Source of the DNA: Trypanosoma brucei
Lineage: Eukaryota
Assembly (NCBI GenBank): GCA_000002445.1
Contig: CM000207.1
Coordinates: forward strand, 2,272,001-2,336,000
Reading direction: 5' to 3'
DNA length: 64,000 bases
Below the pieces are notes generated by a model. That model saw nothing but the letters and a program-made list of their open reading frames with translations. It searched no databases and had not been told where the DNA came from. A program made the translations under genes and the position numbers. Positions 1,069-53,882 of this stretch are shown one piece after another; within the stretch, counting starts at the first letter, position 1, and every line of letters starts with the position of its first letter.

Positions 1069-1213
1069 AACTAACGCTATTATTAGAACAGTTTCTGTAC
1101 TATATTGGTATGAGAAGCTCCCAGTAGCAGCTGGGCCAACACACGCATTTGTGCTGTTGGTTCCCGCCGCATACTGCGGGAATCTGGAAGGTGGGGTCGG
1201 ATGACCTCCACTC
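1069..1213 (+). ncRNA. SLRNA: SL RNA gene, copy 1. Mini-exon 1069-1107, splice-donor GT at 1108, and about 105 nt of intron up to the T-tract.
   Basis: AACTAACGCTATTATTAGAACAGTTTCTGTACTATATTG/GTATGAGAAGCTCCCAGTAGCAGCTGGGCCAACACACGCATTTGTGCTGTTGGTTCCCGCCGCATACTGCGGGAATCTGGAAGGTGGGGTCGGATGACCTCCACTC is followed by T5AT8. This matches the known T. brucei SL RNA of about 140 nt. Confidence 0.93.
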
Positions 1214-1262
1214 TTTTTATTTTTTTTATTTTTTTTATTTATTTTTTTTGATTTTTTTTATT
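1214..1262 (+). terminator. T-tract immediately 3' of the SL RNA gene (T5AT8AT8AT3AT8GAT8A). It is the presumptive SL RNA termination signal. Equivalents follow every full copy, at about 2576, 3972 and 5354.
   Basis: Long oligo(T) runs begin exactly where SL RNA homology ends. Kinetoplastid SL RNA transcription is known to terminate in a downstream T-tract. Confidence 0.55.
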
Positions 1263-1270
1263 TGCTATGC

Positions 1271-1364
1271 TGACACACACACTCACACACACTCACTCAC
1301 TCATATATATATATATATATATTTCTTTATTTATTTATTTGTTTATTTATTTATTTGTTTGTTT

Positions 1365-1395
<31 letters not shown>

Positions 1396-1400
1396 TATGC
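1271..1400. repeat. Compound microsatellite block inside each SL spacer: (CACT/CA)n, (TA)n, (TTTA/TTTG)n, (TATC)n, (TA)n. The tract lengths differ between units and account for the 1362-1396 bp unit-length variation. Equivalent blocks lie at about 2633-2800, 4027-4180, 5407-5565 and 1-40.
   Basis: This can be read directly from the sequence. For example, the (TATC)n tract is 5 units long in unit 1 and 8 or more in unit 2. Confidence 0.9.
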
Positions 1401-2430
1401 AAATATAATTATACTATAGCTTATGGTTTTCTTGCATATCTGTATAAGCGCGTTGGGGTTCTTGATGGGCGCTTTCATGGCTTATACGTGCTCGTTTCTC
1501 CCGTTCATTTTTACGCAGTCGGACAATTTCATGTCGCTCTTTCCATTGCAATTACTCATTTTCATTTTACACATCACTTTCTTACACATATAGGCGCTTT
1601 AAAGTCTGCTGCCCGCCGTTTTCAATGGCGGTCGGCATGCCCCTCTACATGCCTACTGAGCAGGCGGACGGGCCCCGGCATGGCAACACCAAATATCCCC
1701 TTTCAGGGTTTCGCCTCATTTTGCCGATGTTCTTAACCTGGTTATACCCGCAATATGCCAGCTGCACGTTCAGTTCGTGATGTTATATACTTTTCCAATT
1801 TTGGGGCCGGCCCCCGCCCAATCATCACCCGCCGCTAATAAACGGCGGCAGCAATAACAGCGAGCATACCGCCGGCCAGCCACAGAGCCGAAAGAAGCCG
1901 GCCTGCGCGCCCCTATTCATGTTATTAGCCGCCATTAAGCATTATATTACACTCAGCTCAACCGTCCTTCTCCTTTGCGTTGTTGTTGTCGCCGTTGTGT
2001 TCTATATAAAGTTTATCGGCAGAGGCGCCCCTGGCTCCTCCCCATCACCCCCTGCCCACCCTCCAAAATCTGGCCGCCGCCGGCTGGTCCTGGCGCGCCC
2101 CAGAAACGCGTTTCTTTTATTGTTGGTTGATTGCCTTAATGTTCTGTTGCAGATGGCGATTCACCATTAAGCATTTAATATTTTAGAAATAAGAGAGCGC
2201 TGGTAAAAGACGGCGGGTCGCCGCCCACATGGTGGTTGCCGTTATGCACTATACCCCATGTAGTATATATGCGGCCCCGCTTATTCCGCCCCCCTCCCCC
2301 ATAACGCCTTAAGCACAAGACCCCTTTGTTTCCCATAAGTCTACCGACACGTTTCTGGCACGACAGTAAAATATGGCAAGTGTCTCAAAACTGCCTGTAC
2401 AGCTTATTTTTGGGACACACCCATGCTTTC

Positions 2431-2575
2431 AACTAACGCTATTATTAGAACAGTTTCTGTACTATATTGGTATGAGAAGCTCCCAGTAGCAGCTGGGCCA
2501 ACACACGCATTTGTGCTGTTGGTTCCCGCCGCATACTGCGGGAATCTGGAAGGTGGGGTCGGATGACCTCCACTC
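2431..2575 (+). ncRNA. SLRNA: SL RNA gene, copy 2
   Basis: Identical to copy 1 and offset from it by +1362 bp. Confidence 0.93.
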
Positions 2576-3826
2576 TTTTTATTTTTTTTATTTTTTTTAT
2601 TTATTTTTTTTGATTTTTTTTATTTGCTATGCTGACACACACACTCACACACACTCACACACACTCACTCACTCATATATATATATATATATATATATAT
2701 TTCTTTATTTATTTATTTGTTTATTTATTTATTTGTTTGTTTATATCTATATCTATATCTATATCTATATCTATATCTATATATATCTATATATGCAAAT
2801 ATAATTATACTATAGCTTATGGTTTTCTTGCATATCTGTATAAGCGCGTTGGGGTTCTTGATGGGCGCTTTCATGGCTTATACGTGCTCGTTTCTCCCGT
2901 TCATTTTTACGCAGTCGGACAATTTCATGTCGCTCTTTCCATTGCAATTACTCATTTTCATTTTACACATCACTTTCTTACACATATAGGCGCTTTAAAG
3001 TCTGCTGCCCGCCGTTTTCAATGGCGGTCGGCATGCCCCTCTACATGCCTACTGAGCAGGCGGACGGGCCCCGGCATGGCAACACCAAATATCCCCTTTC
3101 AGGGTTTCGCCTCATTTTGCCGATGTTCTTAACCTGGTTATACCCGCAATATGCCAGCTGCACGTTCAGTTCGTGATGTTATATACTTTTCCAATTTTGG
3201 GGCCGGCCCCCGCCCAATCATCACCCGCCGCTAATAAACGGCGGCAGCAATAACAGCGAGCATACCGCCGGCCAGCCACAGAGCCGAAAGAAGCCGGCTT
3301 GCGCGCCCTTATTCATGTTATTAGCCGCCATTAAGCATTATATTACACTCAGCTCAACCGTCTTTATTCTTTGCGTTGTTGTTGTCGCCGTTGTGTTCTA
3401 TATAAAGTTTATCGGCGGAGGCGCCCCTGGCTCCTCCCCATCACCCCCTGCCCACCCTCCAAAATCTGGCCGCCGCCGGCTGGTCCTGGCGCGCCCCAGA
3501 AACGCGTTTCTTTTATTGTTGGTTGATTGCCTTAATGTTCTGTTGCAGATGGCGATTCACCATTAAGCATTTAATATTTTAGAAATAAGAGAGCGCTGGT
3601 AAAAGACGGCGGGTCGCCGCCCACATGGTGGTTGCCGTTATGCACTATACCCCATGTAGTATATATGCGGCCCCGCTTATTCCGCCCCCCTCCCCCATAA
3701 CGCCTTAAGCACAAGACCCCTTTGTTTCCCATAAGTCTACCGACACGTTTCTGGCACGACAGTAAAATATGGCAAGTGTCTCAAAACTGCCTGTACAGCT
3801 TATTTTTGGGACACACCCACGCTTTC

Positions 3827-3971
3827 AACTAACGCTATTATTAGAACAGTTTCTGTACTATATTGGTATGAGAAGCTCCCAGTAGCAGCTGGGCCAACAC
3901 ACGCATTTGTGCTGTTGGTTCCCGCCGCATACTGCGGGAATCTGGAAGGTGGGGTCGGATGACCTCCACTC
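3827..3971 (+). ncRNA. SLRNA: SL RNA gene, copy 3
   Basis: Identical SL exon and intron. The upstream flank has one substitution (CCCACGCTTTC versus CCCATGCTTTC). Confidence 0.92.
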
Positions 3972-4057
3972 TTTTTATTTTTTTTATTTTTTTTATTTAT
4001 TTTTTTTGATTTTTTTTATTTGCTATGCTGACACACACACTCACACACACTCACTCA

Positions 4058-4092
<35 letters not shown>

Positions 4093-5208
4093 TTATTTAT
4101 TTATTTGTTTATTTATTTATTTGTTTGTTTATATCTATATCTATATCTATATCTATATCTATATATATCTATATATGCAAATATAATTATACTATAGCTT
4201 ATGGTTTTCTTGCATATCTGTATAAGCGCGTTGGGGTTCTTGATGGGCGCTTTCATGGCTTATACGTGCTCGTTTCTCCCGTTCATTTTTACGCAGTCGG
4301 ACAATTTCATGTCGCTCTTTCCATTGCAATTACTCATTTTCATTTTACACATCACTTTCTTACACATATAGGCGCTTTAAAGTCTGCTGCCCGCCGTTTT
4401 CAATGGCGGTCGGCATGCCCCTCTACATGCCTACTGAGCAGGCGGACGGGCCCCGGCATGGCAACACCAAATATCCCCTTTCAGGGTTTCGCCTCATTTT
4501 GCCGATGTTCTTAACCTGGTTATACCCGCAATATGCCAGCTGCACGTTCAGTTCGTGATGTTATATACTTTTCCAATTTTGGGGCCGGCCCCCGCCCAAT
4601 CATCACCCGCCGCTAATAAACGGCGGCAGCAATAACAGCGAGCATACCGCCGGCCAGCCACAGAGCCGAAAGAAGCCGGCCTGCGCGCCCCTATTCATGT
4701 TATTAGCCGCCATTAAGCATTATATTACACTCAGCTCAACCGTCCTTCTTCTTTGCGTTGTTGTTGTCGCCGTTGTGTTCTATATAAAGTTTATCGGCAG
4801 AGGCGCCCCTGGCTCCTCCCCATCACCCCCTGCCCACCCTCCAAAATCTGGCCGCCGCCGGCTGGTCCTGGCGCGCCCCAGAAACGCGTTTCTTTTATTG
4901 TTGGTTGATTGCCTTAATGTTCTGTTGCAGATGGCGATTCACCATTAAGCATTTAATATTTTAGAAATAAGAGAGCGCTGGTAAAAGACGGCGGGTCGCC
5001 GCCCACATGGTGGTTGCCGTTATGCACTATACCCCATGTAGTATATATGCGGCCCCGCTTATTCCGCCCCCCTCCCCCATAACGCCTTAAGCACAAGACC
5101 CCTTTGTTTCCCATAAGTCTACCGACACGTTTCTGGCACGACAGTAAAATATGGCAAGTGTCTCAAAACTGCCTGTACAGCTTACTTTTGGGACACACCC
5201 ATGCTTTC

Positions 5209-5353
5209 AACTAACGCTATTATTAGAACAGTTTCTGTACTATATTGGTATGAGAAGCTCCCAGTAGCAGCTGGGCCAACACACGCATTTGTGCTGTTGG
5301 TTCCCGCCGCATACTGCGGGAATCTGGAAGGTGGGGTCGGATGACCTCCACTC
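5209..5353 (+). ncRNA. SLRNA: SL RNA gene, copy 4
   Basis: Identical SL exon and intron. The upstream flank has CTTACTTTTG where copies 1 and 2 have CTTATTTTTG. Confidence 0.92.
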
Positions 5354-6592: not shown

Positions 6593-6651
6593 AACTAACG
6601 CTATTATTAGAACAGTTTCTGTACTATATTGGTATGAGAAGCTCCCAGTAG
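6593..6651 (+). pseudogene. Truncated terminal SL RNA gene. It keeps the 39-nt exon plus 20 nt of intron, then diverges (GAATTATCCG where intact copies have CAGCTGGGCC). This is the 3' boundary of the SL array.
   Basis: The upstream promoter-like flank is intact and identical to copy 4. Homology to the intact copies stops after ...GCTCCCAGTAG at 6651. Confidence 0.85.
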
Positions 6652-7049
6652 GAATTATCCGTACTTGGGGTCAATTTTTCGGGAAGAGAAAGAAGTAAGA
6701 AATCGCTGCATTTATGATATCGATAGGAAAGGAAGGAAAACCTCAAAACCAAAAAAGTCTTGTTTTGGGGGTTCGAACCCGGACCTCCAAAACACAAACA
6801 CAATTAGGAGAGGAGTGTTGCCAGTTGGGCTCTTTCGACAAATCGGAGGAAAAATTGAAAATTTATGCTCAGATGAAATATACCAAATCGTACATATCGA
6901 AGAGAAAAAACATAGGTGTACAAACGGTGCACACGTAGAAAAAAGTAGCGGAATTGATAGAACTCAGGTAAATAAACCCATTACAGAAATCAGCGGATCA
7001 GTTTCTTTCTTGGGACAGAATATCGGGAGGTTGGATGTCAAAAAGTCAC

Positions 7050-8920
7050 CCGAAAATGAATATTTAGAAAAAATCAACTGTGGTCAAAACGACATAATGA
7101 CCACAAAAAATTGTCGCTACGCAGACTTTCGTAGCGCATTTGAAAGGGCTCGACCAGCCCAATGCATGAGTAACAACGGTTACTGCGACAAAGAGGTCAC
7201 AAAAAAATTAGGTGCTGCCGAACCTAAAATTTTTTCAAAAAATGGAAATTTTGAAAAAATTAACCGTGGTCAAAACGACATGACGACCACAAAAAATTGT
7301 CGCTACGCAGACTTTCGTAGCGCATTTGAAAGGGCTCGACCAGCCCAATGCATGAGTAACAACGGTTACTGCGACAAAGAGGTCACAAAAAAATTAGGTG
7401 CTGCCGAACCTAAAATTTTTTCAAAAAATGGAAATTTTGAAAAAATTAACCGTGGTCAAAACGACATGACGACCACAAAAAATTGTCGCTACGCAGACTT
7501 TCGTAGCGCATTTGAAAGGGCTCGACCAGCCCAATGCATGAGTAACAACGGTTACTGCGACAAAGAGGTCACAAAAAAATTAGGTGCTGTCGAACCTAAT
7601 ATTTTTTCAAAAAATGGAAATTTTGAAAAAATTAACCGTGGTCAAATCGACATGACGACCACAAAAAATTGTCGCTACGCAGACTTTCGTAGCGCATTTG
7701 AAAGGGCTCGACCAGCCCAATGCATGAGTAACAACGGTTACTGCGACAAAGAGGTCACAAAAAAATTAGGTGCTGCCGAACCTAAAATTTTTTCAAAAAA
7801 TGGAAATTTTGAAAAAATTAACCGTGGTCAAATCGACATGACGACCACAAAAAATTGTCGCTACGCAGACTTCCGTAGCGCATTTGAAAGGGCTCGACCA
7901 GCCCAATGCATGAGTAACAACGGTTACTGCGACAAAGAGGTCACAAAAAAATTAGGTGCTGTCGAACCTAATATTTTTTCAAAAAATGGAAATTTTGAAA
8001 AAATTAACCGTGGTCAAAACGACATGACGACCACAAAAAATTGTCGCTACGCAGACTTTCGTAGCGCATTTGAAAGGGCTCGACCAGCCCAATGCATGAG
8101 TAACAACGGTTACTGCGACAAAGAGGTCACAAAAAAATTAGGTGCTGTCGAACCTAATATTTTTTCAAAAAATGGAAATTTTGAAAAAATTAACCGTGGT
8201 CAAATCGACATGACGACCACAAAAAATTGTCGCTACGCAGACTTTCGTAGCGCATTTGAAAGGGCTCGACCAGCCCAATGCATGAGTAACAACGGTTACT
8301 GCGACAAAGAGGTCACAAAAAAATTAGGTGCTGTCGAACCTAATATTTTTTCAAAAAATGGAAATTTTGAAAAAATTAACCGTGGTCAAATCGACATGAC
8401 GACCACAAAAAATTGTCGCTACGAAGACTTCCGTAGCGCATTTGAAAGGGCTCGACCAGCCCAATGCATGAGTAACAACGGTTACTGCGACAAAGAGGTC
8501 ACAAAAAAATTAGGTGCTGTCGAACCTAATATTTTTTCAAAAAATGGAAATTTTGAAAAAATTAACCGTGGTCAAATCGACATGACGACCACAAAAAATT
8601 GTCGCTACGCAGACTTCCGTAGCGCATTTGAAAGGGCTCGACCAGCCCAATGCATGAGTAACAACGGTTACTGCGACAAAGAGGTCACAAAAAAATTAGG
8701 TGCTGTCGAACCTAATATTTTTTCAAAAAATGGAAATTTTGAAAAAATTAACCGTGGTCAAATCGACATGACGACCACAAAAAATTGTCGCTACGCAGAC
8801 TTCCGTAGCGCATTTGAAAGGGCTCGACCAGCCCAATGCATGAGTAACAACGGTTACTGCGACAAAGAGGTCACAAAAAAATTAGGTGCTGTCGAACCTA
8901 ATATTTTTTCAAAAAATGGA
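7050..8920 (+). repeat. 186-bp tandem satellite, about 10 copies, + orientation. The unit is ...AAAATTGTCGCTACGCAGACTTTCGTAGCGCATTTGAAAGGGCTCGACCAGCCCAATGCATGAGTAACAACGGTTACTGCGACAAAGAGGTCACAAAAAAATTAGGTGCTG(C/T)CGAACCTAA(A/T)ATTTTTTCAAAAAATGGAAATTTTGAAAAAATTAACCGTGGTCAAA(A/T)CGACATGACGACCAC
   Basis: The exact period is 186 bp; for example, GGTCAAAACGACAT occurs at 7082 and again at 7268. Each unit contains a perfect 7-bp stem hairpin, CGCTACG-N8-CGTAGCG. The six-frame ORF 6665..8971 is a periodic 62-aa repeat. Confidence 0.9.
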
Positions 8921-9149
8921 AACCATTTTTTTGCGACCAATTTTTATTTGAGCATTGCAATGGTCTATTGAAATTCGTGAAAATGCACTACTCGGATCTT
9001 CGTAGTGATCACTTTTTCGACCAGCTGCAATGTTGGAAATTTGCCTTTTTTCATCAATTTTTGATGTTTTCGGCTTTTTCCCCCTCTCTATATTTCTTGT
9101 TGCTTCGTTATGACAATAACCGTTGTTATTGCCTAATTCTACTCGTCCA
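8921..9149. repeat. Degenerate junction between the two oppositely oriented satellite blocks. It holds decayed + copies and then decayed - copies, and the orientation switches near 9050-9150.
   Basis: There is diverged + orientation unit-like sequence (TTCGTAGTGATCACTTTTTCGACCAGCTGCAATG) at about 8990-9040. There is diverged - orientation unit-like sequence (GCGCTACGGAAGTCTGCGTAGAAACCATG) at about 9160-9190. Confidence 0.7.
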
Positions 9150-11762
9150 TTCCGTGTAAATGCGCTACGGAAGTCTGCGTAGAAACCATGTTTATCGTTT
9201 TTGTCGGCCTGCGAAATTTGCTCTTTTTCTTTATTTTTTGAGCATTTTTCTTTTCCAACCGCCCCTATTTTTCTTATGACCTCTTTGTCGCAGTAACCGT
9301 TGTTACTCATGCATTGGGCTGGTCGAGCCCTTTCAAATGCGCTACGAAAGTCTGCGTAGCGACAATTTTTTGTGGTCGTCATGTCGATTTGACCACGGTT
9401 AATTTTTTCAAAATTTCCATTTTTTGAAAAAATATTAGGTTCGACAGCACCTAATTTTTTTGTGACCTCTTTGTCGCAGTAACCGTTGTTACTCATGCAT
9501 TGGGCTGGTCGAGCCCTTTCAAATGCGCTACGGAAGTCTGCGTAGCGACAATTTTTTGTGGTCGTCATGTCGATTTGACCACGGTTAATTTTTTCAAAAT
9601 TTCCATTTTTTGAAAAAATATTAGGTTCGACAGCACCTAATTTTTTTGTGACCTCTTTGTCGCAGTAACCGTTGTTACTCATGCATTGGGCTGGTCGAGC
9701 CCTTTCAAATGCGCTACGGAAGTCTTCGTAGCGACAATTTTTTGTGGTCGTCATGTCGTTTTGACCACGGTTAATTTTTTCAAAATTTCCATTTTTTGAA
9801 AAAATATTAGGTTCGACTGCACCTAATTTTTTTGTGACCTCTTTGTCGCAATAACCGTTGTTACTCATGCATTGGGCTGGTCGAGCCCTTTCAAATGCGC
9901 TACGGAAGTCTTCGTAGCGACAATTTTTTGTGGTCGTCATGTCGTTTTGACCACGGTTAATTTTTTCAAAATTTCCATTTTTTGAAAAAATATTAGGTTC
10001 GACAGCACCTAATTTTTTTGTGACCTCTTTGTCGCAATAACCGTTGTTACTCATGCATTGGGCTGGTCGAGCCCTTTCAAATGCGCTACGGAAGTCTGCG
10101 TAGCGACAATTTTTTGTGGTCGTCATGTCGTTTTGACCACGGTTAATTTTTTCAAAATTTCCATTTTTTGAAAAACTTTTAGGTTCGGCAGCACCTAATT
10201 TTTTTTGTGACCTCTTTGTCGCAATAACCGTTGTTACTCATGCATTGGGCTGGTCGAGCCCTTTCAAATGCGCTACGGAAGTCTGCGTAGCGACAATTTT
10301 TTGTGGTCGTCATGTCGATTTGACCACGGTTAATTTTTTCAAAATTTCCATTTTTTGAAAAAATATTAGGTTCGACAGCACCTAATTTTTTTGTGACCTC
10401 TTTGTCGCAGTAACCGTTGTTACTCATGCATTGGGCTGGTCGAGCCCTTTCAAATGCGCTACGGAAGTCTTCGTAGCGACAATTTTTTGTGGTCGTCATG
10501 TCGTTTTGACCACGGTTAATTTTTTCAAAATTTCCATTTTTTGAAAAAATATTAGGTTCGACTGCACCTAATTTTTTTGTGACCTCTTTGTCGCAATAAC
10601 CGTTGTTACTCATGCATTGGGCTGGTCGAGCCCTTTCAAATGCGCTACGGAAGTCTTCGTAGCGACAATTTTTTGTGGTCGTCATGTCGTTTTGACCACG
10701 GTTAATTTTTTCAAAATTTCCATTTTTTGAAAAAATATTAGGTTCGACAGCACCTAATTTTTTTGTGACCTCTTTGTCGCAGTAACCGTTGTTACTCATG
10801 CATTGGGCTGGTCGAGCCCTTTCAAATGCGCTACGGAAGTCTTCGTAGCGACAATTTTTTGTGGTCGTCATGTCGTTTTGACCACGGTTAATTTTTTCAA
10901 AATTTCCATTTTTTGAAAAAATATTAGGTTCGACTGCACCTAATTTTTTGGCGACCTCTTTGTCGCAATAACCGTTGTTACTCATGCATTGGGCTGGTCG
11001 AGCCCTTTCAAATGCGCTACGGAAGTCTGCGTAGCGACAATTTTTTGTGGTCGTCATGTCGATTTGACCACGGTTAATTTTTTCAAAATTTCCATTTTTT
11101 GAAAAAATATTAGGTTCGACAGCACCTAATTTTTTTGTGACCTCTTTGTCGCAGTAACCGTTGTTACTCATGCATTGGGCTGGTCGAGCCCTTTCAAATG
11201 CGCTACGAAAGTCTGCGTAGCGACAATTTTTTGTGGTCGTCATGTCGATTTGACCACGGTTAATTTTTTCAAAATTTCCATTTTTTGAAAAAATATTAGG
11301 TTCGACAGCACCTAATTTTTTTGTGACCTCTTTGTCGCAGTAACCGTTGTTACTCATGCATTGGGCTGGTCGAGCCCTTTCAAATGCGCTACGGAAGTCT
11401 GCGTAGCGACAATTTTTTGTGGTCGTCATGTCGATTTGACCACGGTTAATTTTTTCAAAATTTCCATTTTTTGAAAAAATATTAGGTTCGACAGCACCTA
11501 ATTTTTTTGTGACCTCTTTGTCGCAGTAACCGTTGTTACTCATGCATTGGGCTGGTCGAGCCCTTTCAAATGCGCTACGGAAGTCTTCGTAGCGACAATT
11601 TTTTGTGGTCGTCATGTCGTTTTGACCACGGTTAATTTTTTCAAAATTTCCATTTTTTGAAAAAATATTAGGTTCGACTGCACCTAATTTTTTGGCGACC
11701 TCTTTGTCGCAATAACCGTTGTTACTCATGCATTGGGCTGGTCGAGCCCTTTCAAATGCACT
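9150..11762 (-). repeat. The same 186-bp satellite, about 14 copies, inverted (- orientation). Together with the + block it forms a head-to-head, palindrome-like arrangement.
   Basis: The reverse complement of the unit is repeated with period 186. The minus-strand ORFs 8909..10126 and 10179..11729 translate to the same 62-aa periodic peptide as the + strand ORF. Confidence 0.9.
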
Positions 11763-12796
11763 ACTTGAATGTTTGTGACGAGTTTTTGCTTTCTACTTCA
11801 TTGATAAGGGGAAATTCTTCATTTTACCTTTTCTTGACATTTTTTTTTTTGCCTCTCAGCCCTTTTACCTCTTTACCCTTATTTTCTTGTAAATAACTGT
11901 TGGTACTATCGGAAATATTTGGCCGATTTTTTGCAAGAGCTATCACTAAATGTTTATGAAGGTATATGGGTACAAAGGCAAAAATACCAGAGTGTGGAAA
12001 ATATCATCATAGCAATACTAGGGGCAAGTATTCAAAATTCGATCACATCGGAAGCTTCAACCATTTCGGATGATCAGAGCACGTATTTCAACTTATTCAA
12101 CGAGATCTTTCCACTGTATATAACACCGATTCTTCAAAGAAAGTGTTTTTAAAGGCCACAGCGGGGGAAGGGCAAAAACAGGAAAATTATATGAAAAAAT
12201 GAAGGATCAAAAATGAGTTCAACGATATTCAAAAACCTAACCATTTCGACTGGTCAGATAGTGCTTTTCAAAGATCTCAATTGAATTATTTTTAAACACA
12301 ATATCTGACCGGTCGTAATGGTTAGGTTTTTGAATATCGTCGAACTCATTTTAATTTATACTTTGTGCCTTCCCCCCATTTTGTGGGTGACTTTCTTTTT
12401 CAGGTCCCCTCATCTTTTCTTCCACATGTTGAAAAGGATAACCATAGCGCAATATAGATATACATATCCAAGGCCAGTGAAATCCCCTTTCTTTGAATAC
12501 ACCATCATTTATTTCTTTAAAGGCTAACGTTTAATTTATTTTCTTCTGGCGCTGAATATAATTTTTTTCTTCTCCATTTTTTAGTCTCTTTTTTCTGAGG
12601 TGGCCAGCCTTACCTTTTTTAGCTTCGACCAGTGGAGAATGGTTCGAACCGCCAGATGTGTTTCTCCTAATTCAAAATTATCTCGTTTCCGTAAAGTCGT
12701 TACACGCAATATCAATCGTCAAGGCAGATTAAAAAAACTGTTCTAATAGTATCTTATCACTTATTTTCATTGGTTTTTCTGTTTCCATATATTATT

Positions 12797-14176
12797 TTAG
12801 AGCCTTCTGGCTTTCTCCATTGCCTCTGCCGCACTGTAAACGTGAACATTCCCGCGGAGGACGGCTGCCACCACATCCGCAGTTATCCCGTCGAATGCGG
12901 TGGTTACCGTAAGTCGGTGGTCCTGGCCCCGGAGGACGCGGCGAAGCCAGTCACGACTTTTGCCGAAAATAGCACCGTTTGTAAGCATAACAAATGGTGC
13001 GAAGGCCAGTCCATTTTGTATCGCCCAGTAGCTGTACTTGCGCTCCTTTTCCTGGAAGCGCACCAATGCGGCTTTCATTGGATCTGCCGCAGCTACTGAG
13101 CGCTGACCTTGGGCGGTGTTTCCGACGGTCACGCGCCCTGGATACGTCACCGTGATGTCCGTCACCGCGTACGTATCCAACCCCGCAATGAGGATGTCCG
13201 GCCTCCTCTTGCTCACCTCATTTAGGCGTGGTTCCGTCGCGCACTGGAACCCACAGAGGCGAAGGCCGTTTGCGAACACGCTGTTAATGATGTCGTGTCG
13301 CATCTGCCTGGGTTTATTGTGCACTTTGGTGCACGTGTGGATGTGGTGATTGCTCGCGTCTTCACCACATAGGCATTTGACCCCCTCCGGTAGTACCCTC
13401 ACAAGTAAACGTTCCCGCAGGTACACTCCGAAAGTGGCGTCGTCCAGCCTCACCTGAGCATCCGTGAGGGGCCTGCCAGCTCCGGCGGCGGTATTGGCTG
13501 TAAAGACTTGACGATCAGCACCCCCAAGGGTGGCGTAGAGGTCGTCTTGCTGTCTTTGGTCAGCCTCCTCCGTCTTCCTCTGCTGGAGACCTTTCTCTCC
13601 GGCGCACTGGTGGGCGTACTCTGCCACTTGGGCCATCCGCCTAATTCCACAGCCACCCATGCTCACGGGCAGCGCCGCTATATTCCGGGCCCTTTCGGTC
13701 ATGGGTTGCCCGAGAATATGCTCCATTACCTGGGTGGTCCTCTCATCGAACCAGGAAGCCACCCGGTGTGTGTGTTGCATATCGTGGTTCCGCAACAGGA
13801 ATGTGATCCTTGGCATTGCCGACATCGCCAGAATCCTCCATCGTGTCCTGTTGTAGAGGGGTAGCTCCACGATTGCCTTGAAGAGGCGGTCTGTTTCCAT
13901 CACCTTCTTCACCCCCTCCCGAATCTCCTCGCTCATTGGATCCGGGGCCACGTACGCTCCAAGAACTCGCGCACACGCCTTCACCGCTGTCCCAAAGCCT
14001 GTGTCCCCAGTCAGTTCGAGGACCTCGGTTTTGTCCGCATTGTTGACGATTCCGAGTTTCTCTATCTGTTGGGCTATCGTCTTGTAAGCATGTTGTAGCT
14101 TATCTGGTGTTGCTGGTACCATGATATCGAGTAGATACGCCGTAAAGTGCTTGTTGGATTCTTTGCTGCGAGTCAT
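12797..14176 (-). pseudogene. Reverse-transcriptase C-terminal fragment (motif C onward plus Cys/His domain) of the degenerate retroelement.
   Basis: It is a 459-aa ORF. The catalytic YADD is mutated to YLLD, and the ORF starts just upstream of motif C with no RT N-terminal half in frame. Confidence 0.5.
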
Positions 14177-16316
14177 GAAGCGTTTTTAGAGTGATCGAAA
14201 AAACCAAGGACTCTGGTGCCATCCCCTGTCTTACTCTCTTCCCGTATATTGCCATTTTTGGCGGAGTCGCCCGTTTTCGTAAAAGCTCACTGCTCCTGCT
14301 GATCCATGGAAGGGGTGGACGAGGCGCTCTGGCGGGGACCACGCAGCGTCTTCATACACTGCTGTCAGTAATGTGCGTCTGTGGATGGCATTGTACGCGG
14401 TCCGACCATCCAGCATGGCCACACTGTCCTGTAGCCACGTTATCTAATCTTTCGCAGCCGTTCGCCCTGAGTTGCATTGATCGGTCCAACACGCCTTTTC
14501 ATATGGGGGCGGTGTTCGACTATATTGATGGTGAAATAGTGGCGAGTGGCGCCGGCTTTGCGTATACTCTATCCACCTCTGTTGTTCTGTCTTTTTTTGC
14601 TTGTTTTTTTGCTCTCTGCTATCATTAGGAGATGTAGAGAATCTTGTCAAGAAGTAGTTCTGCTTGGAGCGATGTTGCTATGCATTCTTCGTGGTTAGAG
14701 GGAATTCCCAATGGGCGAAGCAAATTAAAAGTGTCACAGATTTGCGTAACATGTCTACGTCGTGGGCACAGACGCATGAACTGTGTGGGCTTCTGAAACC
14801 GCAATCTGGTATATTCCCGAAAAAAGCGCATGGTCGGTGGCGCCAAACCCACCGCCAAATGAGTGAATTCTGTGAACGGATGTCTTGTGAGCTGAGTTCG
14901 CAAGTGGATGACAGTAACAACGATAAAAAACATTGCACTGTAATGCGTGAAACAGTGAGGGTCAACGTCGTTTTTTTCCTGTTTTAACAAACCTCCAACC
15001 TTTATGCCCTCAGTATTGAAAGAAATAACGTTGCATTTACCGTGAAGGGGTGCATTCACACCGTTTGGAAGTTCAGATCACCGGAGTGGCAGTGAACAGT
15101 ACGCCAAAAGCCTCCCCTCCCGTAGCGGTGCCGTGGCTGGTTGGAGAGGCATTGGTGAAGCGATCCTGAGCGTCCCTAAAAAGGAAGTGAAGGACAGGTG
15201 CTGAGCCGGTTTTGGACGCTCCATGTAATTTTCTGAGGAACTGTTGTTGTGCTTTACAACCGCTGCTACCACATGCAAATTGCTTTGCATAAGGGGAAGT
15301 TACACAATTTTGACTCGTTTGCGGATCGATCAAAAGTGGTGCAGCCCTCGGCACCCCGCTCTCTGTATCACAGCAACACGAATAACGGCAACACCCAGCA
15401 TAAAAGGGAATCCCAGTGACCAAGTCCAATCCCTCTCCTTACACAGCTTCAGCACTTGTTGCCGCGGTGGGCTCAAATGTATTGCCCTCTCGTAGCCAAG
15501 AGCGGGGCGTCCGAAGAAGTAAGTTGATGAAGAAGGTTCTCCGAAAGGCACCGCTGAAGTGAGTCAAAAACGAGAGGGCGAGGAAATGCCAGTAAGGGGT
15601 AGAAAGGGATCTATAGGGTAAATTGGAGCTGAAGCTCAGTGTACCGGATGGTCTCATGAAGCAGGCAAAGTGTGGAAATCTACCAGAGCTCGGGTGTATG
15701 GTCTTAACGCATGTGACGCGAATGCATTCCGAGGCCACCGTGCGGGCTCTAGGATCTGTTTTGTGGCTGCGCAGCAAAACTGAAGGTGAAAATAGGAAAC
15801 CACCGGCGTCCTCGCTGCGGCAGGACACCGGCAAGGTGAGTTTAGCTGCCGTTTTACCATGGGGGATGTGTACCGTTACGCAGAAAACAGCACTTGCACA
15901 GAGTTAGAGCGTGTAGGTCGGCAACCATTGAGCCATACAATCGAGTGCAGCGCTAGGGGAACGAGGAGGAAGCATTGGGTAGCAAATTTGAGTGAGCGCG
16001 CGCTGAATATCTGGGTGGGATTAGTGAAGTTCCTTACAGCATTGTCGCACCCCGATGATTCGGTTTCCCTGTAATTCATAGTCACAGCCTTTTTTGTGGG
16101 CGTATCATCCAGTGTGTCTTTGTGGAGGAAGTACGAGACGGATACGAGTGCTGTTGCGGTCATTGTTATTTTCTGCTGTGTTGCTGTTATTGTTGTTTCC
16201 TCGGTTAGATTAAGTGGTTTATCTCGTTGTTCTCGTCTCCTGCTAGAAGTGCGTTCCTGCAGTGTTTTTTTTTCATTGTTTGCTGTGTTCCTTTCGGTAT
16301 AGTACCGTGTGCGCAT
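12797..16316 (-). mobile_element. Degenerate non-LTR (ingi/DIRE-like) retrotransposon remnant. The 3' portion is still a 459-aa ORF. The 5' portion has decayed into a tiled series of short minus-strand ORFs broken by stops and frameshifts.
   Basis: The N-terminus of the 459-aa ORF reads FTAYLLDIMV...(28 aa)...LGIVNNADKTEVLEL. This matches the reverse-transcriptase motif C (F-x-A-Y-A-D-D-I, here decayed to YLLD) followed by the conserved G-h-x-h-N-x-x-K-T-x-h-h block of non-LTR RTs. A C-terminal Cys/His cluster (CLCGEDASNHHIHTC) is present. Contiguous minus-strand ORFs (14100-14342, 14231-14422, 14444-14650, 14625-15059, 15073-15429, 15439-15834, 15876-16316) tile the upstream region. Confidence 0.55.
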
Positions 16317-17393
16317 GCCAAGGTCTTCATGTCAATCTTTTCTCCATTTGCTGTATCGTTTTTTTACCGTTATGCAAAGGGTGTTTCCCTTATGTTCTTT
16401 TGTACAGCGGGTGCCTTCTCTACCCACGTCACTCCTCCTCACTAACACTGACTCGTAGAAAGTCTGCACAGTTTATATGTGCTACGAGTAATAGGATTCA
16501 TTCCCAACATTGCTTCTGACTTGTACTCATTTTTCATCACTATCATGTTTTACGTCTGCGTATAACCAGAGATAGGTGTCGCACGCAGGTACCATTAGGA
16601 AAAGAGACTTATGTGGGCTTCTGGCTCTCGTTTGGCGCCAGCCTTATCGAAGGCTACTAGGCTTCAGTTAGGTAATATTAAAACGGAATATGGCTACGTA
16701 TCAACGGCAGCAGGTTCCCAAGAAAAATGGGGCTTCTTATTCAAGGGAAGAAGGTACCCGTTGATTAGCTGCGGATATTCCATATGCCTTGTTTGCATCG
16801 CCATAACGGTGGTGGGCACGTATCAGCAATACCGCGATATGATTATCATGACGGAGCACATATCTTACGAAGATGTAAAGGACCGATGTCTGACACCGAT
16901 GCCTGGGTGGGCGCGCCTTCGAAGCCTGCAGATCGCTAGTCCACTTGGTCCGATGACATATCGAGACCCAACACCGCTGGATTGGCTGCCATTTGAGCTG
17001 AAACTTGGTTGTGTTAAGCAAGCATCGTACTAGGGAACGCATTATGCTACATTTGGTGTTTTAGGTGATCAAAATTTTGATGGGTGCTTTGGCGGAAAAA
17101 AGGAAAGGATATCGCGGAGAATAGAAGAACCGATAGCATGAGGTTGATACTTGATAGGGGTTAAGGTGGCGTATGACTTTATCGTAGTGAAACGGCGTCA
17201 GGGGTATTGGGTACATTATTTCTTGTTTTTTTTCGACGGATTTTTGCGATTGTATCTGCTCCGTTTCTGACACTGTTTCCGGCGTTGTCCCTCCCACACC
17301 CAAAGAGTTCTTCTTTCGTTGCTACTGTTAGTTTTCATCGCAGCTCATTGTTCCTGGTATTTTGAAATAGCTGTAGTTTTTTTAAAAAAAGGG

Positions 17394-21380: not shown

Positions 21381-22988
21381 ATGGATTACCGTAATGATAT
21401 CCAACAGTTAGCTCGGGCGCATCAGTTTCGCCTTCACCCCCTCGCTCTAAAGGGACTGTCTGACTACCTCGCCACTCTCAACGGCAATATCGACGCGCAA
21501 CGTAACGCGCTTCGTGACATTTTTGCGCTTCTTCATAGGGCTTGCGGCTTGGAAAGATTTGTGGACGGTGAAAAAGTGAAATCTGTTGTATCTTTGCATT
21601 CATCTAAGGTACAGGGGGCGATCGACGGTGTTGTGCCGACTGTTGATGTGCTATCGCTGGATGACACGCCCTATGCGTATATTGATGAGTGGAGCGGCGA
21701 GGTAAGAGTACAGTCAACGCGACAACACGGTGATCGGTTCACAGTACTTAACCAACGCTACCTTTTTGCCAGAAAAAGGTGCTTAAGGAGTGGCTTGTTC
21801 TCCCGGGATTCTAGCAAGCAACCAATAGACCAAGGGCTCCCCTCCCTCGTCCCCTCAATTGCCCTCGAAGGGATCGACCCCTCTGACACCGTAGCCGTTC
21901 TGGGAATGCTCGTCAAACATTCCAGCGCAACATATTTGGAAGACATCTACGGTCGCGTCAAGCTTATCATGCGTGGGTGTGTGCACCCTCCTGTTGGCGT
22001 CGTGGGAGAAGGATTTTTCGTTGTGGTGAAGGGGCAGTGGGTTGGTGGATTGTTTGTTGTGGCTAGCGTAGACCTCCCGCCCGCAGAGAGGCGCGAAGAC
22101 ACACTGAGGGTCGTTGGCTCTGATTTTGATCTTTTCGGTCGACGCCCCGATGACGTTGTGGCGGCATTTAGGCGGGAGAAAACTTCGTTGGGCTCTGTGG
22201 TAATCGTGATGTCGCAGATTCACCTTGACCAGCGCTCAACCGTCGATAGTCTCATAAGTTTCTTCAGAGAAATGCAAAACCGGTCGGAAGCTGAGCTGAC
22301 AGATACTACACTGGTTATGGTCGGCGAGTTTTGCTCCAGCCCGATTCACTACGATGACGTTTCACATCTTCCCGAACCCTTCGAAGGCTGTGATCGCTAC
22401 AGATCACTTATGAACATTCTCGCGACTGTAATTACTGTTCATGCGCCGAGCGTTGCGCAACTCACACAGGTGGTTATTGTTCCTGGGTGTGGCGACATTA
22501 CGGGTCTTCTTGGCGTTTTACCACAGCCACCTATTGTCAGCACATTTGGCAAAGTTTTGCAGGCGCGTTTGAAGAAGGTTGTCTTAGCCCCTAACCCTTG
22601 CCGGCTGCGCTTCTTCACGCACGAAATGATAGTAGTTCGTCGGGATTTCTCTCGGTCGCTGCGGGAGAAGGAGCGCACATTCGAGTGGTCCCGGCATGAG
22701 GCATCCACGCCTGTTATTTCCTTTGAAAGTATTGCAAAGACTATCCTGGACGAGGCGCACTTGGCGCCGGGGGTGACGGAGGGGATTTTGTGGAAAGCAG
22801 ATAAGGCACTCTGCCTACCAGTGCTTCCACATCTTCTCGTTATGTGCGACAGCACAGAACAGTGGGAGTGTTCCTACAAGGGGGTTCGTATCGTCAACCC
22901 AGGGCCATTCTCGCTCGGGAAGACATTTCTGTGGTATACGCCAGCTGATGGGGAGTGTAGCCTGAGCAGTGTCGACGACCAAGTATGA
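21381..22988 (+). CDS. DNA polymerase epsilon (alpha/epsilon family) subunit B-like protein.
   Basis: VLGMLVKHSSATYLEDIYGRVKLIMRGCVHPPVGVVGEGFFVVVKGQWVGGLFVVASVDLPPAERRE resembles the OB-fold/phosphoesterase-like core of B-subunits (LED..G.V.L...G.F.EG..V...G.Y.DG.F.V.....PP.E.R). VIVMSQIHLD and LVMVGEFCSSP follow downstream. Confidence 0.55.
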   Translation: MDYRNDIQQLARAHQFRLHPLALKGLSDYLATLNGNIDAQRNALRDIFALLHRACGLERFVDGEKVKSVVSLHSSKVQGAIDGVVPTVDVLSLDDTPYAYIDEWSGEVRVQSTRQHGDRFTVLNQRYLFARKRCLRSGLFSRDSSKQPIDQGLPSLVPSIALEGIDPSDTVAVLGMLVKHSSATYLEDIYGRVKLIMRGCVHPPVGVVGEGFFVVVKGQWVGGLFVVASVDLPPAERREDTLRVVGSDFDLFGRRPDDVVAAFRREKTSLGSVVIVMSQIHLDQRSTVDSLISFFREMQNRSEAELTDTTLVMVGEFCSSPIHYDDVSHLPEPFEGCDRYRSLMNILATVITVHAPSVAQLTQVVIVPGCGDITGLLGVLPQPPIVSTFGKVLQARLKKVVLAPNPCRLRFFTHEMIVVRRDFSRSLREKERTFEWSRHEASTPVISFESIAKTILDEAHLAPGVTEGILWKADKALCLPVLPHLLVMCDSTEQWECSYKGVRIVNPGPFSLGKTFLWYTPADGECSLSSVDDQV

Positions 22989-50251: not shown

Positions 50252-50299
50252 TATTGCGGGAAATGTGTGATCGATCATATAAGGCGCCGAGTATTCACA

Positions 50300-53200: not shown

Positions 53201-53880
53201 GAAAAATAAAAAAAAGTATATATGAAAGATGAGGGAATCGATATTTTGAATCGTGTGCACAAAAAAAAACGCAAGACAAACAGGTAATAGTAACAGTAAT
53301 AATAACTTAAGTACCTGCATGCATACATATATTTATATATAATTTGTATGAATATATATATATAATATGTATTTGTGTATGCGTGTGTTCTAACGGTGTA
53401 AGCTGTGCGGTCAAAAAGATATGACAAAGAAAACAAAAGAAGATTTTTTTTTAAAAAAAAAGAAAGCAATGCAATATAAAAGCAGAAAGAGCCACTGATA
53501 CTCTTCTGTACATGTGGGCGGCTGAAGGTACACTCCGTTCCTATTTTCCTCTTCTTAAAATGTTGTATTTTTATTATATTTGTGTTAACATTTGCTTGTG
53601 TCCACGCTGGTGTTGCTGTTGATTCTTTCCCTTTCCCTTTTTCTTATTTCTTTTTTTTTCTTTCTAATTTTGAACCTTGTGTCCGTCACTTCTTTACATC
53701 AACCCTTCGAAATATGAGAACAACGTAAGCGAAGGCAAGTGAAGAAAGGAGTAAGTGGAAGTGGAAGTGGAAGTGGGCAAAAGGGAGGAAATAAGCGCAG
53801 GCACAAAAGCACCAAAAGAAGAAAACAAATAAACAAAAAAAAAGAAAGGTGTTAAAACACTTGTCACTCACCTTCCACAA
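50300..53880. repeat. An AT-rich, low-complexity intergenic region of about 3.6 kb, packed with heterogeneous microsatellites: poly-T/poly-A, (TA)n, (TTTA)n, (GT)n, (ATTATT)n, AAATCAAATCAAATCA, (GAAGTG)n, (GGAGGA)n.
   Basis: This can be read directly from the sequence. No ORF longer than 120 aa is present. Both flanking genes are on the + strand. Confidence 0.8.
53620..53700 (+). promoter_or_regulatory. Polypyrimidine tract upstream of the Utp6-like gene. It is the presumptive trans-splicing and polyadenylation-coupling signal.
   Basis: CTTTCCCTTTCCCTTTTTCTTATTTCTTTTTTTTTCTTTCT lies about 200 nt upstream of the ATG at 53883. Kinetoplastid SL addition uses such tracts. Confidence 0.45.
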
Positions 53881-53882
53881 CA

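What the first reader, a model, noticed from the sequence alone, without database searches (positions are those of the whole stretch)
7050..11762. A 186-bp satellite laid out as two head-to-head inverted blocks directly next to the SL array
About 10 + copies and about 14 - copies of the same 186-bp unit meet at a decayed junction near 9.05-9.15 kb. That geometry is a giant imperfect palindrome of about 4.7 kb. Each unit also carries a perfect 7-bp hairpin, CGCTACG-N8-CGTAGCG, and near-palindromic A/T runs such as ATTTTTTCAAAAAAT. Inverted satellite blocks can extrude cruciforms, stall replication and drive rearrangement. This one sits between the pol II SL array and a dead retroelement, which looks like a boundary or fragile zone. 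I do not recognise the unit as the 177-bp minichromosome repeat, the 50-bp repeats, or the 147-bp centromeric repeats.
Basis: seen in the sequence. Interest (0 to 1): 0.75.

Follow-up and report, generated by a model that had tools for sequence, protein, structure and literature searches.

The report
Two facing SLACS retrotransposon 5' repeat arrays
The "186-bp satellite" is the known internal tandem repeat of the trypanosome retrotransposon SLACS, present here as two broken copies facing each other at the edge of the spliced-leader gene array, so it is not a new kind of repeat.

Summary
Two 186-bp arrays lie in opposite orientation: 7053-8922 (10.1 copies) and 9264-11764 (13.4 copies), about 98% identical.

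The interpretation as an unrecognised satellite is wrong. The window is Trypanosoma brucei TREU927 chromosome 9. The unit is the variable-number tandem repeat between the 5' leader and ORF1 of the spliced-leader-specific non-LTR retrotransposon SLACS.

The + array belongs to a SLACS copy fused to the fifth SL RNA gene after nt 59, which is the canonical insertion junction. It is cut in its 11th repeat. The - array belongs to a second SLACS copy, cut 6 nt after the ORF1 start codon. The "decayed junction" is simply the canonical degenerate repeats of the - copy. The true breakpoint is 8921/8922.

The arms carry private variants, so they are separate arrays and not a fold-back copy. An independent T. 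b. equiperdum assembly confirms the - arm's orientation but lacks the junction. The junction is therefore strain-specific or a cloning or assembly deletion.

The only novel reading is that transcription from the SL promoter across the junction yields hairpin RNA that feeds the abundant SLACS siRNAs. I could not test this. Interest is low.

The parts
1069..5350 (+). Four intact SL RNA genes of the tandem array. Transcription starts are at 1069, 2431, 3827 and 5209, and the unit is about 1.38 kb.
   Evidence: Exact matches to the 39-nt spliced leader followed by the normal SL intron sequence. The array aligns to the T. b. gambiense SL array.
6593..6651 (+). Fifth SL RNA gene, interrupted after nt 59. 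Its promoter region (-250 to +59) is 99-100% identical to the intact copies. This is the canonical 5' junction of a SLACS insertion.
   Evidence: One search shows identity for 59 nt followed by divergence at 6652. The same junction ('cccagtag|gaattatccgtacttgg') occurs in L001 and L003.
6652..7052 (+). Unique 5' leader of SLACS copy A (+).
   Evidence: Window 6606-7885 aligns to L001 9077-10330, annotated as partial SLACS, and 6603-7317 aligns to L003 at 97.8%.
7053..8922 (+). SLACS copy A tandem repeat: 10 units of 186 bp plus 10 nt, ending abruptly.
   Evidence: Private variants C166 and A176 occur only in this arm.
8910..8933 (.). Breakpoint between the two copies at 8921/8922, with 2 nt (AA) shared. 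The join creates a short palindrome, CAAAAAATGG-AAA-CCATTTTTTTG. On the minus strand the SLACS ORF1 ATG (8926-8924) plus one more codon survive.
   Evidence: UniProt 'SLACS 45 kDa protein' starts MVRNLRSS, which is exactly this position.
8923..9237 (-). Two degenerate repeat copies of SLACS copy B. This is the normal sequence between the repeat array and ORF1.
   Evidence: Window 8921-9981 matches L001 10567-9524 at 92.6%. nhmmer and the alignment support this. The same sequence leads into ORF1 in L003.
9238..11764 (-). SLACS copy B tandem repeat: 13 units (one is 187 bp, with A8 instead of A7 near 10196-10203) plus a 108-nt partial unit at the distal end.
   Evidence: Private variants T131 and A164 and the A37+A70 haplotype mark this arm. 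T. b. equiperdum shows the same orientation relative to the flank.
11765..12796 (-). Degenerate region upstream of copy B on the minus strand. It holds an SL relic (12729-12749), a few collinear islands resembling the SLACS leader, and a hairpin with 63-nt arms (12210-12352).
   Evidence: It is conserved in T. b. gambiense and T. b. equiperdum.
12797..14176 (-). C-terminal fragment of the SLACS ORF2 (reverse transcriptase/endonuclease protein), annotated 'SLACS reverse transcriptase, putative' (EAN77315.1).
   Evidence: Exact protein match. About 90% DNA identity to the 3' part of the full-length SLACS in L003.

Best explanation
The feature is two 3'-truncated 5' ends of the SL-RNA-gene-specific non-LTR retrotransposon SLACS (CRE clade). 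They lie in convergent orientation at the downstream edge of the T. brucei chromosome 9 SL RNA gene array. The 186-bp unit is the element's own variable-number tandem repeat, which sits between its roughly 400-nt leader and ORF1.

Copy A (+) is fused to the last SL RNA gene after nt 59 and is broken in its 11th repeat. Copy B (-) comes in from the gene-side flank and is broken 6 nt after the ORF1 start codon. The palindrome is therefore a rearrangement scar: a deletion or end-join with 2 nt of microhomology between two oppositely oriented elements. It is not a purpose-built satellite.

Shown here: the identity of the unit, both junctions, and the separate origin of the two arms.

Inferred: copy A keeps an intact SL RNA promoter and has lost the SL terminator. 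Published work places the SLACS transcription start at +1 of the interrupted SL gene. Pol II transcripts could therefore run through the sense repeats and, if they cross the junction, fold into a near-perfect duplex of about 1.9 kb that the Dicer-like enzymes could process. The locus would then add to the known SLACS siRNA pool. I regard this as a by-product of the arrangement and not an evolved function.
For: - Source: the window is TREU927 chromosome 9, shown by exact protein matches.
- Annotation: the repeat frame hits only a protein named 'SLACS retrotransposable element (part)'.
- Canonical order: in T. b. gambiense L001 the order is poly(A)/SL nt 12-60, leader, 186-bp repeats, degenerate repeats, ORF1.
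- Full-length element: in T. b. equiperdum L003 the same repeats continue into a full-length SLACS (97.5% identical over 4.1 kb to L001) and then to poly(A) plus the rest of an SL gene.
- ORF1 start: UniProt SLACS 45 kDa protein starts exactly where copy B is cut.
- Prior listing: a published table lists Repbase SLACS nt 462-648 (186 bp) and minus-strand partial SLACS at coordinates that correspond to window 7239-7425 and 8921 onward.
- Copy number: it varies between elements, at 3.9, 4.9, 6.9, 7.3, 10.1 and 13.4.
- Separate arms: the arms carry private variants and are not mirror images.
- Promoter: the SL promoter and +1 to +59 are intact.
- Folding: a read-through RNA folds into a near-perfect duplex, -726 kcal/mol for the inner 1.1 kb.
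- Literature (PMC3447711): SLACS transcription starts at +1 of the interrupted SL gene. SLACS gives 26% of AGO1-bound small RNAs, with a two-fold antisense excess, restricted to the 5' half. The source of the dsRNA is unknown.
Against: - The breakpoint at 8921/8922 is absent from the independent T. b. equiperdum IVM-t1 assembly, where copy B is full length.
- It is apparently absent from T. b. gambiense as well, where the + copy runs at least 1.7 kb into ORF1 before an assembly gap. The junction is therefore not conserved and may not exist in vivo.
- The antisense strand has four T runs of 6 or more per unit against one on the sense strand, and a T7 lies right at the junction. These could stop SL-type pol II before a long hairpin is made.
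- Published SLACS siRNAs cover the whole 5' half of the element, including ORF1, which this hairpin does not contain.
- I could not read the primary SLACS papers. The '185-bp repeat' of the literature is from my memory only.
Confidence: 0.85

Rival explanations
1. The junction at 8921/8922 is an artefact. One possibility is a central deletion of a much longer natural palindrome (two convergent full-length SLACS) during propagation in E. coli. The other is a chimeric clone or read carried into the Sanger assembly. Both arrays would still be real, but they would not abut in the parasite.
For: - T. b. equiperdum has a full-length SLACS where TREU927 has the cut.
- T. b. gambiense has an assembly gap at the distal end of the - arm, and its + copy extends into ORF1.
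- Long inverted repeats are known to suffer central deletions in E. coli (general knowledge).
- The two breakpoints fall at the same phase of the repeat (...AAAAATGG|), as expected when a hairpin tip is trimmed.
Against: - The join shares only 2 nt, so an assembler could not have made it from overlapping repeats. At least one physical clone must carry it.
- The arms have private variants.
- An orientation switch must exist somewhere, because the left edge of the array is + and contiguous with its flank, while the right edge is - and contiguous with its flank in two assemblies.
Confidence: 0.25
2. The inverted pair is a selected 'trap' locus. It would be a natural hairpin-RNA gene that triggers RNAi against SLACS, analogous to maize Mu killer.
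For: - It is an inverted duplication of the 5' part of the element.
- It sits behind a strong, intact host promoter.
- A read-through transcript would form a near-perfect duplex.
- SLACS siRNAs are abundant, biased to the 5' half and to the antisense strand, and their dsRNA source is unexplained.
Against: - The junction is not conserved in T. b. equiperdum.
- T-tracts at and beyond the junction could terminate transcription.
- The siRNA-producing region extends beyond what the hairpin covers.
- The published survey of large inverted repeats lists none on chromosome 9.
- The strain used for small-RNA sequencing was YTat 1.1, not TREU927.
Confidence: 0.15
3. The repeat is maintained because it is coding. 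186 bp is 62 codons, and one frame is open through the leader, all repeats and the degenerate copies into ORF1. The arrays would then encode an N-terminal repeat extension of the SLACS 45-kDa protein.
For: - There is a stop-free run of 770 codons in a two-repeat composite, against a maximum of 278 in 1000 shuffles.
- Each unit contains an in-frame ATG.
- The T. b. gambiense annotation calls a 591-aa product across it.
Against: - Variable sites show no third-position excess that could be called significant: 8 of 17, counted by hand.
- I found no homologue outside T. brucei.
- The Pfam hits have no individual significant stretch.
- One unit in the - arm is frameshifted.
- The published ORF1 starts after the repeats.
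Confidence: 0.12
4. It is an independent satellite with a chromosomal role, such as a centromere, a boundary or a programmed fragile site.
For: Its position is at the edge of the SL array, next to a probable strand-switch region. Each unit has strong local hairpins, with z = -3.9 for RNA and -4.7 for DNA.
Against: The unit occurs inside SLACS elements wherever these were retrieved. The chromosome 9 centromeric repeats are of the 147-bp type and lie elsewhere. I found no other copy of the unit outside SLACS context in the loci I retrieved.
Confidence: 0.02

Closest known systems
SLACS (spliced leader associated conserved sequence), a CRE-clade site-specific non-LTR retrotransposon of T. brucei
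   Same: The 5' junction after SL nt 59/60 is the same. So are the leader, the 186-bp tandem repeat, the degenerate repeats and the ORF1 start. A review of the clade notes that 'internal repeat regions' occur in CRE elements (PMC12278014).
   Different: Both copies here lack ORF1, ORF2 and the poly(A) end. They have 10 and 13 repeats, against 4-7 in the other copies I retrieved. They are joined tail-to-tail, which is not a product of retrotransposition.
Long inverted repeats IR1-IR7 of T. brucei that produce siRNAs (Tschudi et al. 2012, PMC3447711)
   Same: These are kilobase-scale, nearly identical inverted arms separated by a short spacer. Such loci are documented siRNA sources in this organism.
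   Different: This locus is not in that list, which has none on chromosome 9. Its arms are tandem arrays of a transposon repeat, so reads from it would have been counted as 'SLACS'. I could not test siRNA production from this locus.
Mu killer of maize, a naturally inverted partial transposon copy that silences MuDR through hairpin RNA (from my own knowledge)
   Same: It is an inverted duplication of the 5' part of an active element, placed behind a host promoter, in an organism that silences the element by RNAi.
   Different: There is no evidence that this locus is transcribed across the junction. There is also no evidence that it is needed for silencing or that it is conserved.
5' UTR monomer arrays of mouse LINE-1, and the 5' VNTRs of MoTeR/FoTeR telomeric retrotransposons
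   Same: These are variable-number tandem repeats of about 200 bp at the 5' end of a non-LTR element. FoTeR belongs to the same clade as SLACS, and its VNTRs are 5'-biased (PMC12857005).
   Different: Mouse L1 monomers are promoters, whereas SLACS is reported to use the SL RNA gene promoter. There is no sequence similarity. The function of the SLACS repeats is unknown.

Membership tests
SLACS retrotransposon (CRE clade) | Insertion in an SL RNA gene. The 5' junction follows SL nt 59/60 and the 3' junction is at nt 11/12, giving a target duplication of about 49 bp. | tested here: met
   Copy A: the SL gene at 6593 is identical to intact copies for 59 nt, then SLACS leader follows. The same junction occurs in L001 and L003, and poly(A)|TTATTAGAACAG 3' junctions are seen there. 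Copy B has only a degenerate SL relic at 12729-12749.
SLACS retrotransposon (CRE clade) | The sequence is continuous with an element that encodes SLACS ORF1 (45 kDa) and ORF2 (RT plus REL endonuclease). | tested here: met
   In L003 the same repeats and degenerate copies run into ORF1 and a 988-aa RT ORF. The 45-kDa protein P0034 starts at the end of the degenerate copies.
SLACS retrotransposon (CRE clade) | A complete, potentially autonomous element with ORF1, ORF2 and poly(A). | tested here: not met
   Copy A ends in its 11th repeat. Copy B ends 6 nt into ORF1. They are partial copies, consistent with the 'Partial SLACS CRE' label.
Centromeric or other known T. brucei satellites (CIR147, 177-bp minichromosome repeat, 50-bp repeats) | Unit length and sequence of those repeats, and a centromeric or expression-site-flanking position. 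| tested here: not met
   The period here is 186 bp. The literature places 147-bp-type repeats at the chromosome 9 centromere, which is not in the assembly. I did not align the sequence against those repeats.
T. brucei siRNA-producing long inverted repeats | Two nearly identical inverted arms of 0.4-10 kb. | tested here: met
   Arms of 1565 nt in register at 98% complementarity, with a spacer of about 340 bp.
T. brucei siRNA-producing long inverted repeats | AGO1-bound 22-25-nt RNAs map to the locus. | not testable with these tools
   No small-RNA data are available here. The published tables give no coordinates for this locus.
Hairpin-RNA transposon trap (Mu killer type) | Transcription from an outside promoter through both arms, and a requirement for silencing. 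| not testable with these tools
   The promoter is intact by sequence, but there is a T7 at the junction and 55 T runs of 6 or more beyond it. No expression or genetic data are available.

The most novel reading that the evidence does not exclude
In TREU927 the last SL RNA gene promoter would drive a transcript through 10 sense SLACS repeats into 13 antisense repeats. This would make a natural hairpin RNA of about 1.9 kb that seeds or sustains the DCL2/AGO1 siRNA response against SLACS. That would supply the unexplained dsRNA source for the 5'-biased, antisense-rich SLACS siRNAs.
Probability: 0.15. Interest if true: 0.55.

Novelty: already known. Interest (0 to 1): 0.22.

Why it matters
As a repeat it does not matter much. 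It is a known part of a known retrotransposon, and a published dataset already lists the partial copies on both strands.

It has some value as a caution for annotating the SL array edge in the reference genome, because the breakpoint may be strain-specific or a cloning deletion.

It would matter more if the inverted pair proved to be transcribed. How T. brucei generates double-stranded RNA against SLACS is an open point in the RNAi literature, and a hairpin locus driven by the SL promoter is a simple, testable candidate.

Tried and rejected
- Rfam at gathering threshold on the whole window found nothing. At E<=1 on 5-13 kb it gave only generic miRNA-precursor-like hits to the hairpin at 12210-12352.
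- ARAGORN found no tRNA, despite the GGTTCGAACC motif in the leader.
- Pfam hits to the repeat protein (scorpion toxin, ADAM10 and others) have zero individually significant stretches. They are sums over repeats, so I rejected them.
- Fold-back or mirror duplication is rejected, because the arms carry private variants and differ over the first 340 bp next to the junction.
- Simple inversion of part of one array is rejected, because the distal end of the - arm (mid-unit, 11764) is not the complement of the + arm breakpoint.
- The T. b. gambiense syntenic locus has 100-N gaps exactly at the critical points, so it is uninformative on the junction. The T. equiperdum OVI contig ends inside the RT fragment.
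- In the T. congolense SLACS-like contig, the 190-bp repeat lies in the SL spacer, and there is no homologue of the 186-bp unit. Nothing was learned from it.
- The primary SLACS papers are not held. The siRNA supplementary tables carry no usable coordinates.
- The exact look-up of the TREU927 contig through its own protein failed.
Full report

Yes. Tandem Repeats Finder reports two arrays with a 186-bp period. One is at 7053-8922 (10.1 copies, 98% matches, score 3586). The other is at 9264-11764 (13.4 copies, 98%, score 4748). Their consensus units are reverse complements of each other. The inverted-repeat search finds arms of up to 1565 nt at 98% complementarity. The motif CGCTACG-N8-CGTAGCG is present 23 times, and ATTTTTTCAAAAAAT or its complement 22 times. 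None of this is a chance pattern.

**2. Where does the window come from?**

Exact protein look-ups identify the window as Trypanosoma brucei brucei TREU927 chromosome 9. For example, 12797-14176(-) is EAN77315.1 'SLACS reverse transcriptase, putative', and 21381-22988(+) is the DNA polymerase epsilon subunit B. A published table of SLACS hits on NC_007282 matches two features of the window at the same offset. This places the window at about 2,272,001-2,336,000 and the breakpoint described below at 2,280,921/2.

Five SL RNA genes lie on the + strand, at 1069, 2431, 3827, 5209 and 6593. The fifth is identical to the others from -250 to +59 and then diverges at 6652.

**3. What is the unit?**

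One reading frame is open through every unit, because 186 bp is 62 codons. Searching that frame against 5.8 billion proteins gave a single hit, 'SLACS retrotransposable element (part)' of T. b. gambiense DAL972.

The DNA around that gene (L001) shows the canonical order:
- poly(A), then SL nt 12-60
- 'gaattatccgtacttgg...' leader of about 400 nt
- 186-bp repeats
- about 340 bp of degenerate repeats
- coding sequence

In T. b. equiperdum IVM-t1 (L003) the same repeats lead into a full-length element with ORF1 and a 988-aa reverse-transcriptase ORF. That element ends in poly(A) followed by the rest of an SL RNA gene. The UniProt entry 'Retrotransposable element SLACS 45 kDa protein' begins MVRNLRSS, immediately after the degenerate repeats.

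The published table lists a 186-bp hit to Repbase SLACS nt 462-648 at the position of the second + unit. It also lists minus-strand partial SLACS hits from the breakpoint onward. Copy number differs between elements: 3.9, 4.9, 6.9, 7.3, 10.1 and 13.4.

The unit is therefore the internal variable-number tandem repeat of SLACS. From memory, the literature calls it the '185-bp repeat' of the SLACS 5' region. I could not open those papers. A recent survey does state that CRE-clade elements carry internal repeat regions.

**4. Anatomy of the palindrome**

Copy A (+):
- SL gene nt 1-59 (6593-6651)
- leader (6652-7052)
- 10 units plus 10 nt (7053-8922)

Copy B (-), read on the minus strand:
- a 108-nt partial unit and 13 units (11764-9238)
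- two degenerate units (9237-8923)
- the ORF1 ATG plus one codon, and then the break

The real orientation switch is sharp, at 8921/8922, with two shared bases.

The arms are not mirror images. C166 and A176 occur only in the + arm. T131, A164 and the A37+A70 haplotype mark the - arm, and one - unit has an extra A. This rules out a fold-back copy. It also rules out one array having been assembled twice.

Both breaks fall at the same phase of the repeat (...AAAAATGG|), and the join forms a small palindrome, CAAAAAATGG-AAA-CCATTTTTTTG. That is suggestive of trimming at a hairpin tip, but it is not proof.

**5. Is the junction real in the parasite?**

The orientation of the - arm relative to the flanking genes, and its distal boundary, are reproduced in the independent T. 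b. equiperdum assembly. In that assembly, however, copy B is full length and is followed by further minus-oriented SL and SLACS sequence, so the TREU927 breakpoint is absent.

T. b. gambiense has 100-N gaps at the critical points, and its + copy runs at least 1.7 kb into the coding region.

An orientation switch must exist somewhere in the array. The left edge is + and contiguous with its flank, while the right edge is -.

The specific junction is therefore either TREU927-specific or a deletion that arose in cloning. I put the artefact at about 25%.

**6. How it most likely works**

The simplest account is that this is a rearrangement scar between two oppositely oriented retrotransposon copies, with no dedicated function.

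The arrangement does have a predictable consequence. Copy A retains a complete SL RNA promoter and has lost the SL terminator. [quoted passage not shown] A transcript that crosses the junction would fold into a near-perfect duplex, -726 kcal/mol for the inner 1.1 kb alone.

SLACS accounts for 26% of AGO1-bound small RNAs. [quoted passage not shown]

Three points count against a major role:
- The junction is not conserved.
- The antisense strand carries four T runs of 6 or more per unit against one on the sense strand, with a T7 exactly at the junction. These may terminate SL-type pol II.
- The siRNA-producing region includes ORF1, which the hairpin lacks.

I give the 'hairpin siRNA source' reading about 15%.

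**7. Other readings**

A centromere or satellite role is rejected. The chromosome 9 centromeric repeat is of the 147-bp type and is not in the assembly, and the unit is found only within SLACS.

A coding role for the repeats is possible but unsupported. The frame is open for 770 codons in a two-repeat composite that runs from the SL junction into ORF1, against a maximum of 278 in shuffles. However, variable sites show no clear third-position bias (hand count), and no homologue exists outside T. brucei.

**8. Verdict**

The unit is already known, so interest is low. One modestly interesting and testable idea remains, that the locus makes hairpin RNA.

Noticed in passing
window 6638-8971 (+), 8909-11729 (-); L001 10001-11776: One reading frame is free of stops from within the SL gene remnant through the SLACS leader, every 186-bp repeat and the degenerate repeats, and on into the published ORF1. 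In a two-repeat composite this is 770 codons, against a maximum of 278 in 1000 shuffles. Each repeat carries an in-frame ATG. This raises the possibility of a repeat-containing N-terminal extension of the SLACS 45-kDa protein.
   Followed up: partly
each 186-bp unit, e.g. window 8541-8726: The unit folds into five short local hairpins: GTGGTC/GACCAC, CGCTACG/CGTAGCG, GGGCT/AGCCC, AGTAAC/GTTACT and ATTAGGT/ACCTAAT. The z-score is -3.9 as RNA and -4.7 as DNA. Of 24 variable sites in 31 units, only 3 fall in stems, where about 8 are expected. The degenerate copies show two double changes that keep pairing: CGCTAC/GTAGCG to CACTAC/GTAGTG, and AGTAAC/GTTACT to AATAAC/GTTATT.
   Followed up: partly
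window 12210-12352: A long hairpin, with 63-nt arms at 89% complementarity and a 17-nt loop, lies between the - array and the SLACS RT fragment. It is conserved in T. b. gambiense. It matches no Rfam family, only sub-threshold generic miRNA-precursor hits.
   Followed up: partly
window 12729-12749 (-) and 12377-12750 (-): A relic of SL nt 10-26 lies on the minus strand just after the RT fragment. A few collinear islands follow it (GGTTCGAACC, AAAGTCACCC..AAAATG) that resemble the SLACS leader. This may be an ancient, heavily degenerate SLACS 5' end.
   Followed up: partly
window 7053-11764: T-tracts are strongly strand-asymmetric. There is one run of 6 or more T per unit on the sense strand and four per unit on the antisense strand, with 55 such runs after the junction on the + strand. 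This might favour sense and disfavour antisense transcription by T-tract-sensitive polymerases.
   Followed up: partly
L003 12485-12624 (T. b. equiperdum IVM-t1): A run of 140 A replaces the A7 tract of a repeat unit near the distal end of the array. It is probably a long-read assembly artefact, but it could be a real expansion.
   Followed up: no
window 6776-6785 and 12641-12650: The perfect 10-bp palindrome GGTTCGAACC resembles a tRNA B box. It is present in the SLACS leader and again in the degenerate minus-strand region. ARAGORN calls no tRNA.
   Followed up: partly
window 14200-16600: The T. b. gambiense annotation places small minus-strand ORFs (102, 72 and 146 aa) between the RT fragment and the first + strand gene at 16611. 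This implies a divergent strand-switch region near 16.4-16.6 kb. Its leftward transcription would enter the - array in the sense direction and converge on the junction.
   Followed up: no
window 50000-54000: A 3.6-kb AT-rich stretch (GC 0.27-0.36), with several TA-rich microsatellites, lies between two + strand ORFs (46112-50251 and 53883-56576).
   Followed up: no
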